Below, one piece after another: positions 42,673 to 43,653 of a stretch of 64,000 nucleotides of DNA. Origin of the DNA: the human T2T-CHM13v2.0 reference genome, Homo sapiens; NCBI RefSeq assembly GCF_009914755.1, contig NC_060943.1. One strand, 5' to 3'. Numbering within the stretch: the first letter of the stretch is position 1; each line of letters starts with the position of its first letter. The translations under genes and the position numbers were made by a program. The notes under the pieces were generated by a model. The model saw nothing but the letters and a program-made list of their open reading frames with translations, searched no databases and was not told the origin of the DNA.

Positions 42673-43653
42673 ATGTTGAGTCGGCTCTTCTACTTGCTGT
42701 TCATGGCAGTTCATTCTCCTGGACACAATATGCCGCCACCGGTGAATAATCCCCCAGGTCACTCTGCTTACTCTTTGCTGTCCCTGTCCTCGTCGCCGGG
42801 CTTCCTTGAATTCCTCCTTCGTGTACAAGTGCCTTGTCTGTCCTGCTTGTCTGGGACCTGCTGCGTTTGCTTCACTGCCAATCGCCGGAGGCCTGCCCGG
42901 GCCTGTGAGGAAGTTTATACTTATTTTTTCCCTAGAGATGAGACCCAGCTTCGTCCTTTCAGTTGCCTCCTTTCTCACTGCAGGGACCGGCACTGGCAGG
43001 ATGCTCGCTTACAGGCATCCCTCGTTTACTATCGGGTCCTTCTCCGCCCGACTACTCTTCAAGAATGCCTCATTCTGTGGCTCCTCAAGCGAGCTGTCTG
43101 GTTCCTCCGGATGGTCATTTATAGGCCTCTTTCTCAGACCCCAGTTTCTCTTTACAACCGGGGTTTCCTGTGGGTCAATGGGAAGTTCTTCATCCGCCTC
43201 CTCAAGCCATTGTTACAGACCTGTACGGCAGTCAGGTGCTTTTTGTATTATGTTGAAAAAGCTGACAGAAAATGCCCCCGGCACTCCCCTTGCTGCTTAT
43301 GTGATCATATCAGGGACGTAAAAAACCAGAATCAACAGCCCAGTCCACTAACTCTGAGCCCCAGGGGCCTTCCATGCCTGTTTAAGCATTTTTTCTGTAT
43401 GATCCCCAAGGAACCTACTATGACCAGGGGAAGATATCAAATTTACCTCCATTCCTCTAACCATCTGTATGCATTAATCCAATATTATCATGCATTAAGG
43501 GGACCTTACCATGGAGTCCCTTCTCTGCAGACTTTAGCAGGGGCAGAACTACTGGACTTCTTGCAGAACCAAGGTCACTGGGAATATGAGAGACAAGAGA
43601 ACTACTCCCATGCCCGACGTTCTTACATGCTTCCTGGCCCAACACAGAGGTGA
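42673..43653 (+). CDS. Leader ORF upstream of gag (pre-gagV1-like), 326 aa, Cys-rich, no recognisable domain
   Basis: Uninterrupted ATG...TGA ORF of 981 nt between the PBS and gag, in a different frame from gag. The start codon actually used is uncertain (several Met). I recall a pre-gag ORF being reported for this provirus. Confidence 0.62.
   Translation: MLSRLFYLLFMAVHSPGHNMPPPVNNPPGHSAYSLLSLSSSPGFLEFLLRVQVPCLSCLSGTCCVCFTANRRRPARACEEVYTYFFPRDETQLRPFSCLLSHCRDRHWQDARLQASLVYYRVLLRPTTLQECLILWLLKRAVWFLRMVIYRPLSQTPVSLYNRGFLWVNGKFFIRLLKPLLQTCTAVRCFLYYVEKADRKCPRHSPCCLCDHIRDVKNQNQQPSPLTLSPRGLPCLFKHFFCMIPKEPTMTRGRYQIYLHSSNHLYALIQYYHALRGPYHGVPSLQTLAGAELLDFLQNQGHWEYERQENYSHARRSYMLPGPTQR

What the first reader, a model, noticed from the sequence alone, without database searches (positions are those of the whole stretch)
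42673..43653. 326-codon leader ORF with two CCxC cysteine clusters
Seen: the leader between PBS and gag is unusually long (~1.6 kb) and holds a 981-nt ORF with 17 Cys, including CLSCLSGTCCVC and CPRHSPCCLCDH. It also has a hydrophobic N-terminus (MLSRLFYLLFMAV) and a central hydrophobic/basic stretch (LILWLLKRAVWFLRMVIY). It is out of frame with gag and ends 262 nt before it, so it is not an MLV glyco-Gag-type extension. Inference: a possible accessory protein of an ancient retrovirus, metal-binding or palmitoylated. Caveat: overlapping frames (42806-43321 + and 42502-42993 -) are also stop-poor, so part of the length may be compositional.
Basis: partly seen in the sequence, partly recalled or inferred. 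Interest (0 to 1): 0.8.

Follow-up and report, generated by a model that had tools for sequence, protein, structure and literature searches.

The report
Known retroviral leader gene pre-gagV1
The long open reading frame is real and is the already published pre-gagV1 gene of the HERV-V1 provirus, the one intact human copy of an old retroviral leader gene whose function is still unknown.

Summary
The 326-codon ORF (42673-43653, +) exists as described, with 17 Cys. It is not a product of base composition: 0 of 2000 shuffles reached its length.

It is not new. It is the "pre-gagV1" ORF upstream of gagV1/ERVFRD-2 and ERVV-1, described by Boso et al. 2021. That paper was not held; I saw passages in three citing papers.

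- **Viral origin:** only this frame detects 71 decayed matches at 61 places in the human genome (control). These include the Syncytin-2 provirus. Frame-blind nucleotide alignments show a third-codon-position excess of differences (p=7e-6).
- **Retention:** the ORF is open in tamarin (83% identity), while the ERVV-2 paralogue took 12 ORF-breaking hits.
- **Bat relatives:** intact ~300-aa relatives exist in four named bat species.
- **Protein features:** 12 Cys and 3 His are invariant between primates and bats. There is no membrane segment. The hydrophobic N-terminus lies before the conserved start (Met11).
- **Weak points:** residue-level constraint in primates looks weak. No fold or family was found.

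My best reading is a soluble, basic, probably zinc-binding leader protein, translated from unspliced RNA.

The parts
42673..43653 (+). pre-gagV1 ORF: 326 codons from the first ATG, plus TGA
   Evidence: Equated with pre-gagV1 through passages.
42703..42705 (+). Met11 (MAVHS...), the start shared with other lineages (MALHT...); gives 316 aa
   Evidence: The database cluster P0001 (316 aa) starts here.
42730..42732 (+). Met20 (MPPP...), with A at -3; start of the tamarin protein and aligned with the Miniopterus start; gives 307 aa
42835..42870 (+). Cys cluster 1 (aa 55-66, CxxCxxxxCCxC); all five Cys invariant in primates and bats
42964..42993 (+). Cluster 2 (aa 98-107, CLLSHCRDRH); C98, H102 and H107 invariant. 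The next codon (W108, TGG) is TAA in 12 of 16 FRD-like relics.
43273..43308 (+). Cluster 3 (aa 201-212, Cx5CCxCxH); C201, C207, C208 and C210 invariant
43375..43398 (+). Cluster 4 (aa 235-242, CLFKHFFC); C235, H239 and C242 invariant
42268..42285 (+). Primer binding site. tRNA-Val according to PMC11905727; the tRNA match was not computed here.
   Evidence: sequence; passage
42303..42315 (+). Consensus splice donor CTGG|GTAAGTGCC (GT at 42308-42309), kept as CAG|GTAAGT in ERVV-2
   Evidence: A consensus match only; no transcript evidence.
42386..42406 (+). The only ATG between the LTR end and the ORF: a 6-codon upstream ORF
43900..43915 (+). Pyrimidine tract plus CAG directly in front of the gag ATG (acceptor-like). 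A YAG is kept at this spot in 12 of 14 distinct related loci.
43916..45367 (+). gagV1 / ERVFRD-2 ORF (483 aa from MGNQSS)
   Evidence: Gag_p30 2.2e-28. The sequence matches the Q6ZRZ8 row in the supplement of PMC12679747.
42308..42653 (+). [quoted passage not shown]
   Evidence: RNA fold z-score is -0.47.

Best explanation
**What it is.** The ORF is pre-gagV1. It is the single full-length survivor in the human genome of a 'pre-gag' gene carried in the 5' leader of the ERV-V / ERV-FRD group of gammaretrovirus-like viruses.

**Shown here.**
- The frame is real and longer than chance allows.
- It was under protein-coding constraint while the viruses diversified.
- It has stayed open in a catarrhine and a platyrrhine, while its tandem paralogue decayed.
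- Relatives of the same length are intact in bats.
- 12 Cys and 3 His in four clusters are invariant across primates and bats.
- The conserved protein starts at Met11 or Met20 (316 or 307 aa). It is basic (pI 9.5) and has no predicted membrane segment.

**Inferred.**
- The product is a soluble, zinc-binding protein. My odds for zinc binding are about 0.45.
- In the virus it was translated from the unspliced full-length RNA, where it is the first substantial ORF.
- Gag, which sits behind 27 ATGs and directly after a conserved acceptor-like YAG, was made from an RNA with the leader spliced out (donor 42307, acceptor 43915). Splicing would then set the pre-gag to gag ratio.
- In the host, the open frame has been kept by selection for at least 43 My. 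Constraint on most residues is only weak.

For: **Identity with pre-gagV1.**
- PMC11905727 mentions 'an unusual pre-gag gene ... expressed in placenta'.
- PMC9514029 also cites it.
- This is the only long ORF between the PBS and gag.

**Not chance.** 0 of 2000 shuffles reached the length.

**Coding in the viral phase.**
- The ORF protein finds 71 matches at 61 places in the genome.
- The open overlapping frame 42806-43321 finds 6 matches, all in the closest copies. The DNA itself finds 7.
- On 23 distant locus records, only the ORF frame scores (67-120 bits). The other five frames score 38 bits or less.
- In frame-blind blastn alignments to three relatives, differences by codon position are 143/500, 121/498 and 189/498 (p=6.7e-6). 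Gag gives 223/949, 175/952 and 301/947.
- Stops number 1.95 per 100 codons in the matched frame, against 3.38 and 3.71 in the other two frames, in 19 loci.

**Retention.**
- The tamarin protein is 307 aa and 83% identical, with both clusters kept.
- The Mandrillus model carries the last 72 codons at 89% identity.
- The ERVV-2 copy has 6 frameshifting indels, 4 in-frame stops and 2 Alu blocks inside the span. With a Poisson mean of 12, P(0) is 6e-6.
- No other held locus has more than 241 open codons.

**Bats.**
- Relatives exist in Miniopterus (307 aa), Molossus (319 aa), Myotis (300 aa) and Pipistrellus (301 aa).
- Human against Miniopterus gives BLASTP 3e-23.
- The Miniopterus protein searched against the human genome hits only this ORF.

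**Residues.** There are 44 invariant columns, including 12 Cys and 3 His.

**Expression logic.** There is one 6-codon upstream ORF ahead of the ORF and 27 ATGs ahead of gag. The donor and acceptor motifs are conserved.
Against: **Residue-level constraint in primates is weak or undetected.**
- Human-tamarin differences (54 of 307) are not depleted at bat-invariant columns (17/121 against 25/158, p=0.74).
- ERVV-1 against ERVV-2 differences are flat over codon positions (57/68/62 of 317 each).
- The PeptideAtlas audit computed dN/dS for 'four predicted ERV ORFs' and reports three as below 1. Pre-gagV1 is not among them (Table S3).

**No protein or fold evidence.**
- No stretch of the protein occurs in the audit's readable supplement.
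- There is no Pfam, PDB or Rfam match.
- The ESM Atlas models are poor (pLDDT 0.33 and 0.30).

**Other points against.**
- Nonsense mutations alone would leave the frame open with P of 0.03 to 0.11. The retention argument therefore leans on indels and Alu insertions.
- Most FRD-like relics share an in-frame TAA, so the gene was dispensable for amplification in that lineage.
- The splicing model rests on motifs only.
- RefSeq annotates no transcript over the ORF.
Confidence: 0.75

Rival explanations
1. It is a relic of a viral gene that is open in humans without any host function. It survived by luck or by linkage to the selected gagV1 and env genes.
For: Residue-level drift looks close to neutral. 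The audit does not list it among ORFs with dN/dS below 1. No stretch of the protein occurs in the audit's readable tables. Nonsense-only survival has P of 0.03 to 0.11. With 61 copies, one long survivor is less surprising than for a single locus.
Against: The tandem paralogue, of the same age, took 12 ORF-breaking events. The frame is also open in tamarin, an independent lineage of about the same length. The last 72 codons are open in Mandrillus. All 15 family-invariant Cys/His are kept in both primates. Linkage does not protect against indels.
Confidence: 0.15
2. What is selected is the open frame or its translation, acting in cis on the gagV1 transcript (ribosome traffic, RNA stability or splicing). 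The protein sequence itself is not selected.
For: The frame is kept but residues drift. The ORF is the first long ORF of the unspliced RNA and ends 262 nt before gag. A donor-like GAG|GTGAGA overlaps its stop codon.
Against: The invariant Cys/His are kept in both primates. Bats keep the same protein at 52-89% identity among themselves, with 124 of 290 columns invariant. Reinitiation after a 316-codon ORF is inefficient in eukaryotes (established knowledge).
Confidence: 0.07
3. It is a membrane-anchored or palmitoylated protein. The Cys strings would be acylation sites next to hydrophobic stretches.
For: Cluster 1 sits in the second most hydrophobic stretch (KD 1.52, aa 51-69). CCxC strings resemble acylated cysteine strings; that resemblance is recalled, not tested.
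Against: No 19-residue window reaches 1.6. The N-terminal hydrophobic stretch lies before the conserved start. Invariant His residues next to the Cys (H102, H107, H239) fit metal ligands better than acylation sites.
Confidence: 0.1
4. It is a chance ORF in an A-poor, non-coding leader.
For: Overlapping frames are also stop-poor and the strand is A-poor.
Against: 0 of 2000 shuffles reached the length. Distant homology is specific to this frame. There is a third-position excess of differences. Intact relatives exist in tamarin and bats.
Confidence: 0.01

Closest known systems
pre-gagV1 of HERV-V1 (Boso et al. 2021, Mol Biol Evol, doi 10.1093/molbev/msab245). The paper was not held. It is known to me from passages in citing papers and from recall of its abstract.
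   Same: Same locus and same position: between the 5' LTR/PBS and gagV1, upstream of ERVV-1 on chr19. I take it to be the same ORF.
   Different: Nothing at the level of the ORF. What I did not see in the texts I could read:
- the 61 places in the human genome (PMC11905727 says Boso et al. found 'five other human ERV relics');
- the relic in the Syncytin-2 provirus;
- the bat proteins;
- the shared TAA.

The original paper or its supplements may hold some of these.
MLV glyco-Gag (gPr80gag)
   Same: It is a protein encoded in the leader of a gammaretrovirus, upstream of the gag AUG.
   Different: Glyco-Gag is an in-frame N-terminal extension of Gag. This ORF is in another frame, stops 262 nt before gag and shows no profile similarity to gagV1.
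pre-gag regions and putative ORFs of ERV-W, HERV-9/30, HERV-H and HERV-T (PMC6995185 passages; PMC5388530 methods passage)
   Same: A long PBS-to-gag leader, donor and acceptor motifs at its two ends, and a putative ORF inside.
   Different: Sequence relationship was not tested, because I held no reference sequences. The ERV-W pre-gag is partly derived from HERVIP10 pol, and its ORFs differ between primate parvorders. Here the ORF is a conserved protein family.
Retroviral nucleocapsid CCHC zinc knuckles and other zinc fingers
   Same: Short conserved Cys/His clusters in a basic protein.
   Different: No Pfam zinc-finger model matches. The spacings (CxxCx4CCxC; Cx3Hx4H; Cx5CCxC(xH, His not invariant); Cx3Hx2C) fit no family I could test.

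Membership tests
pre-gagV1 (HERV-V1 leader ORF) | Lies between the 5' LTR/PBS and gagV1 of the provirus that carries ERVV-1 on chr19 | tested here: met
   The order in the window is LTR pair, PBS, ORF, gag, then env. Gag equals the ERVFRD-2/Q6ZRZ8 row. The hub annotation places ERVV-1 at 48660-50093.
pre-gagV1 (HERV-V1 leader ORF) | Open frame kept in simian orthologues | tested here: inconclusive
   Tamarin is intact over 307 aa. Mandrillus has the last 72 codons only. No other primate sequence was within reach.
pre-gagV1 (HERV-V1 leader ORF) | Placenta-restricted expression | not testable with these tools
   Stated in PMC9514029 and PMC11905727 (passages).
MLV-type glyco-Gag | Upstream start in frame with gag and continuous with it | tested here: not met
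   Frame 0 against frame 1. The TGA at 43651-43653 lies 262 nt before the gag ATG.
pre-gag leader of gamma-like HERVs (Grandi et al. 2020) | Long PBS-to-gag interval with donor and acceptor motifs at its ends | tested here: met
   The interval is 1.63 kb. GT is at 42308 and AG at 43914-43915. The acceptor-like YAG is kept in 12 of 14 loci. These are motifs only.
pre-gag leader of gamma-like HERVs (Grandi et al. 2020) | Sequence homology to the ERV-W, HERV-H or HERV-T pre-gag | not tested
   No reference sequences were held.
Zinc-binding proteins | Conserved Cys/His ligand sets | tested here: met
   12 Cys and 3 His are invariant in 8 primate and bat sequences. Most are kept in the decayed relics.
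Zinc-binding proteins | Match to a described zinc-finger family or fold | tested here: not met
   Pfam gave none. The PDB profile search gave none. ESM Atlas gave no usable hit.
Membrane or secreted protein | Signal peptide or transmembrane helix in the conserved protein | tested here: not met
   The top KD-19 window is 1.55. The hydrophobic N-terminus lies before the conserved Met. No dedicated predictor was available.

The most novel reading that the evidence does not exclude
Pre-gag is a true, so far uncharacterised accessory gene family of an old clade of gammaretrovirus-like viruses that includes ERV-V and ERV-FRD. It encodes a protein of about 300 aa with four Cys/His (zinc) clusters, translated from the unspliced RNA. 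It would have been kept as a host gene twice, in simian primates (pre-gagV1) and in vespertilionoid bats. The bat-to-bat identities of 52-89% broadly follow the species tree.
Probability: 0.35. Interest if true: 0.7.

Novelty: already known. Interest (0 to 1): 0.35.

Why it matters
As a finding it rediscovers a published ORF, so it adds little by itself. The open question is what pre-gag does.

It sits where simple retroviruses are not expected to carry a gene. It was conserved as a protein across ERV-V-like and ERV-FRD-like viruses. It is the first ORF on the RNA that also encodes the placental gagV1.

If the bat proteins are orthologous host genes, the same viral gene was domesticated in two mammalian orders. 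A defined set of 15 invariant Cys/His gives direct handles for mutagenesis and metal-binding tests.

Tried and rejected
**Explanations rejected.**
- Chance or compositional ORF: rejected.
- Overlapping frames as the real feature: the + frame 42806-43321 finds only the closest copies. The other five frames of the ORF span, reverse frames included, score 38 bits or less on distant loci. The reverse ORF 42502-42993 has only a weak Pfam hit (DUF2509, E=0.071, below cut-off).
- Transmembrane or signal reading: no window of 1.6 or more, and the N-terminus is not conserved.
- The tree (21 of the 40 rows of A3) gave a long human branch and a short tamarin branch. Polarising the 54 differences with ERVV-2 did not bear this out (21 agree with human, 14 with tamarin, 19 with neither), so I dropped it.

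**Searches that found nothing.**
- Pfam: 0 families for the ORF. DUF7358 matched in 2 of 8 family members at E=0.014, below any cut-off.
- PDB profile search up to E=10: 0 hits.
- Rfam over 41700-44100 up to E=1: 0 hits.
- ESM Atlas: models of pLDDT 0.33 and 0.30, with no usable hit.
- Viral contigs (IMG/VR): 44 pattern matches, none confirmed.
- RNA fold of 42308-42672: z = -0.47.
- A donor pattern AGGTRAGT upstream of the Syncytin-2 provirus (L039): 0 matches. That stretch turned out to be LTR.

**Weak or inconclusive.**
- Internal duplication of the Cys modules: hhalign gave probability 62% over 21 columns, which is inconclusive.
- Relation to gagV1 or envV1: hhalign probability was below 1%.

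**Tools and texts not available.**
- Boso et al. 2021 was not held.
- The docx supplement of PMC12679747 could not be read.

**Searches for prior print of the wider family.**
- 'pre-gagV1' gave 3 papers.
- 'pre-gag' with 'HERV' gave 12.
- 'pre-gag' from 2021 onward gave 18 papers, of which the tool listed 16.
- A four-term search gave 1.
- Going by the listings of these searches and the passages I opened, I saw no mention of bat or HERV-FRD pre-gag relatives.
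Full report
**1. The observation**

The window holds an ATG-to-TGA ORF of 326 codons at 42673-43653 on the + strand. It has 17 Cys, including the two quoted clusters. The frame is open stop-to-stop from 42661.

The ORF lies between a PBS-like site (42268-42285) and the gag ATG at 43916. It is in a different frame from gag and ends 262 nt before it.

The strand is A-poor (20.8% A), and two overlapping frames have open stretches of 191 and 168 codons.

Composition does not explain the length. 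None of 2000 dinucleotide-preserving shuffles of 42261-43920 gave an ATG-ORF of 326 aa in any frame (mean 90, largest 254). There are no tandem repeats.

**2. What it is called**

The provirus is HERV-V1. An LTR pair lies at about 41714 and about 50500. The gag ORF has Gag_p30, a zinc knuckle and MA. The env ORF is ERVV-1 (hub annotation).

I saw three relevant texts, as passages only:
[quoted passage not shown] Its supplement row for ERVFRD-2 carries the gag sequence of this window.
- PMC11905727 speaks of 'an unusual pre-gag gene' expressed in placenta. [quoted passage not shown]
- PMC9514029 says gagV1 and pre-gagV1 are highly expressed in human placenta.

The source paper (Boso et al. 2021, MBE) was not held. 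From recall of its abstract only, it calls pre-gagV1 the first ORF found in an HERV gag leader, with orthologues in all simian lineages.

The finding is therefore a rediscovery.

**3. Was it ever a gene?**

Yes, in the viral phase.

*Frame-specific homology*
- Searching the human genome with the ORF protein gave 71 matches at E of 0.01 or better. I merged them by eye into 61 places, counting the ORF itself and ERVV-2.
- Many matches run over 200-280 residues at 26-36% identity.
- The DNA of the ORF found only 7 matches, in ERVV-2, two chrX loci and one chr11 locus.
- As a control I used the overlapping frame 42806-43321, which is open for 171 codons. It found 6 matches, all in ERVV-1, ERVV-2 and the two chrX loci.
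- On 23 distant locus records (22 places), tblastn with all six frames of the ORF span scored 67-120 bits for the ORF frame. The other five frames scored at most 38 bits. Those loci had been picked by the ORF frame, which biases the comparison. The size of the gap and the independent control argue that the bias is not the cause.

*Codon-position signature*
- I made frame-blind blastn alignments to the three closer relatives (chrX:83.1M, chrX:97.0M, chr11:38.6M).
- Differences by codon position are 143/500, 121/498 and 189/498 (position 3 against positions 1+2, p=6.7e-6).
- Gag in the same loci gives 223/949, 175/952 and 301/947.

*Stop density*
- In 19 distant loci, stops number 1.95 per 100 codons in the matched frame. 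The two other frames have 3.38 and 3.71.

*The Syncytin-2 provirus*
- One of the places lies 5' of a gag relic that is 41% identical to gagV1 over residues 2-483.
- The same provirus carries a 538-aa env that is Syncytin-2 (538 of 538 residues matched to 7oix_A).
- So the HERV-FRD provirus carries a decayed pre-gag too.

*Tree*
- A tree of 21 rows (of the 40 in A3) separates four groups: bats; ERV-V; a chrX:88.42M plus chr12 pair; and an FRD-like group of 12 rows.

**4. Has the host kept it?**

*For retention*
- A tamarin (Saguinus oedipus) hypothetical protein of 307 aa is 83% identical over 94% of the ORF. It keeps 15 of the 17 Cys.
- A Mandrillus gene model joins an ARPC1AP2-like part (window 38612-39245) to the last 72 codons of the ORF at 89% identity.
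- The tandem paralogue in ERVV-2 is about 80% identical. I aligned it piece by piece. It has 8 small indels (6 frameshifting), 4 stops at ORF-frame codons and two Alu-like blocks of 306 and 596 bp inside the span. A 293-bp block sits 20 nt before the start.
- If 12 breaking events is the neutral mean, the chance of none is 6e-6.
- Among the other loci I held (35 records), the longest open stretch over the matched part is 241 codons.

*Against strong constraint*
- Nonsense mutations alone would spare the frame with P of 0.03 to 0.11.
- ERVV-1 against ERVV-2 differences are flat over codon positions (57/68/62 of 317).
- Human-tamarin differences (54 of 307) are not depleted at columns invariant among five bat proteins (17/121 against 25/158, p=0.74).
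- Those differences are spread over both lineages.
- The audit computed dN/dS for 'four predicted ERV ORFs' and names three as significantly below 1. Its Table S3 has no row for pre-gagV1.
- Its readable supplement holds none of the three stretches of the protein that I searched for. Its docx supplement could not be read.

My rough estimate is dN/dS of about 0.6-0.7. It uses neutral divergences recalled from memory and is not a computed result.

**5. Relatives outside primates**

A profile of the human, tamarin and decayed human copies was searched against 1.84 billion representative proteins. It found 67 proteins at E of 0.001 or better. Most are short fragments.

One full-length hit is Miniopterus natalensis LOC107541405 (307 aa). 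Its relatives are Molossus molossus (319 aa), Myotis myotis (300 aa), Pipistrellus kuhlii (301 aa) and two unnamed proteins (302 and 261 aa).

- Human against Miniopterus gives BLASTP E=3e-23 and 28% identity over about 290 residues.
- The Miniopterus protein searched against the human genome hits only this ORF (E=5e-15).
- The identities among bats are 84% (Myotis-Pipistrellus), 59-62% (those two against Miniopterus) and 52-54% (those two against Molossus). This broadly follows the species tree. The bat tree itself is recalled, not computed.

I could not see the bat genomes. Whether these are orthologous host genes or leader ORFs of young proviruses is open.

**6. The protein**

*Start codon*
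- The conserved start is Met11 (MAVHS; MALHT in other lineages). A conserved stop lies a few codons upstream.
- Met20 (A at -3) starts the tamarin protein and aligns with the Miniopterus start.
- The hydrophobic MLSRLFYLLF stretch is therefore not part of the conserved protein.

*Properties*
- The 326-aa form weighs 38 kDa, has pI 9.5, and has no 19-residue hydropathy window of 1.6 or more.

*Invariant residues*

Eight primate and bat sequences share 44 invariant columns, including 12 Cys and 3 His. In ORF numbering they fall into four clusters:

| Cluster | Invariant residues |
|---|---|
| 1 | C55, C58, C63, C64, C66 |
| 2 | C98, H102, H107 |
| 3 | C201, C207, C208, C210 |
| 4 | C235, H239, C242 |

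*Searches for a family or fold*
- No Pfam, PDB or Rfam match was found.
- There is no similarity to gagV1 or envV1.
- The signal for an internal repeat is weak.
- The ESM Atlas models are poor.

Zinc binding is thus an inference from invariant Cys/His next to each other. It is not a result.

**7. How it was probably expressed (inference)**

- Only one ATG (42386, a 6-codon ORF) precedes the ORF downstream of the LTR.
- 27 ATGs, from 42673 to 43874, precede the gag ATG.
- A consensus donor follows the PBS (CTGG|GTAAGT, GT at 42308). ERVV-2 has CAG|GTAAGT there.
- A pyrimidine tract plus CAG abuts the gag ATG. A YAG is kept at that spot in 12 of 14 distinct related loci.

This fits a leader intron. 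Unspliced RNA would give pre-gag, and leader-spliced RNA would give gag. Grandi et al. proposed the same for the ERV-W pre-gag (PMC6995185, passages). No transcript evidence was available here.

**8. Verdict**

- The interpretation as an accessory protein of an ancient retrovirus is supported. The metal-binding or palmitoylation part is untested.
- The ORF is already known as pre-gagV1.
- I did not see four things in the texts within reach: the size of the family in the human genome, its presence in the Syncytin-2 provirus, the bat proteins, and the set of invariant Cys/His. The unread source paper may cover some of them.

Noticed in passing
window 42308-42653: [quoted passage not shown] The 5' LTR windows are 34-89% identical (77-89% over 41940-42259) and the ORF about 80%. 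This points to a gene-conversion tract (conversion is known for the env genes, PMC2567338) or a constrained non-coding element. The RNA fold is not unusual (z = -0.47).
   Followed up: partly
L010, L012, L020, L021, L023, L024, L027, L028, L030, L031, L033, L036 (codon aligned with window 42994-42996): 12 of 16 FRD-like pre-gag relics share an in-frame TAA where pre-gagV1 has TGG (W108). One has TAG and three have sense codons. Among 10 such copies, the third-position excess of differences is seen both before and after that stop. The pairs are not independent. This is unexplained.
   Followed up: partly
L038 (chr6:10969500-10979499, - strand): The Syncytin-2 (ERVFRD-1) provirus carries a gag relic 41% identical to gagV1 over residues 2-483 (E=6e-97), and a pre-gag relic. 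PMC12679747 nevertheless says ERVFRD-2 'is not related to ERVFRD-1'.
   Followed up: yes
window 38612-39245 and 43435-43650: A Mandrillus leucophaeus gene model (P0003) joins an ARPC1AP2-like part to the last 72 codons of the ORF, in frame and ending at the same stop. This may reflect read-in transcription from the pseudogene upstream.
   Followed up: partly
window 43647-43655: A donor-like GAG|GTGAGA overlaps the stop codon of the ORF. By my reading of the sequence, joining it to the acceptor at 43915 would not put the ORF in the gag frame.
   Followed up: no
L011 (chrX:88.42M) and L016 (chrY:3.31M): This relic, present in an X copy and a Y copy, keeps 212 and 241 codons open in the pre-gag frame. 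That is the longest stretch after pre-gagV1 among the held loci.
   Followed up: no
window 39984-40745 (-): A 253-aa ATG-ORF lies on the minus strand over two stretches masked as repeats (40029-40363 and 40368-40705). It is probably a repeat artefact.
   Followed up: no
window 43916-45367: The gagV1/ERVFRD-2 ORF is intact (483 aa from MGNQSS). It is not in the RefSeq table given for this window, although the PeptideAtlas audit reports placental peptides and dN/dS of 0.385 for it.
   Followed up: partly
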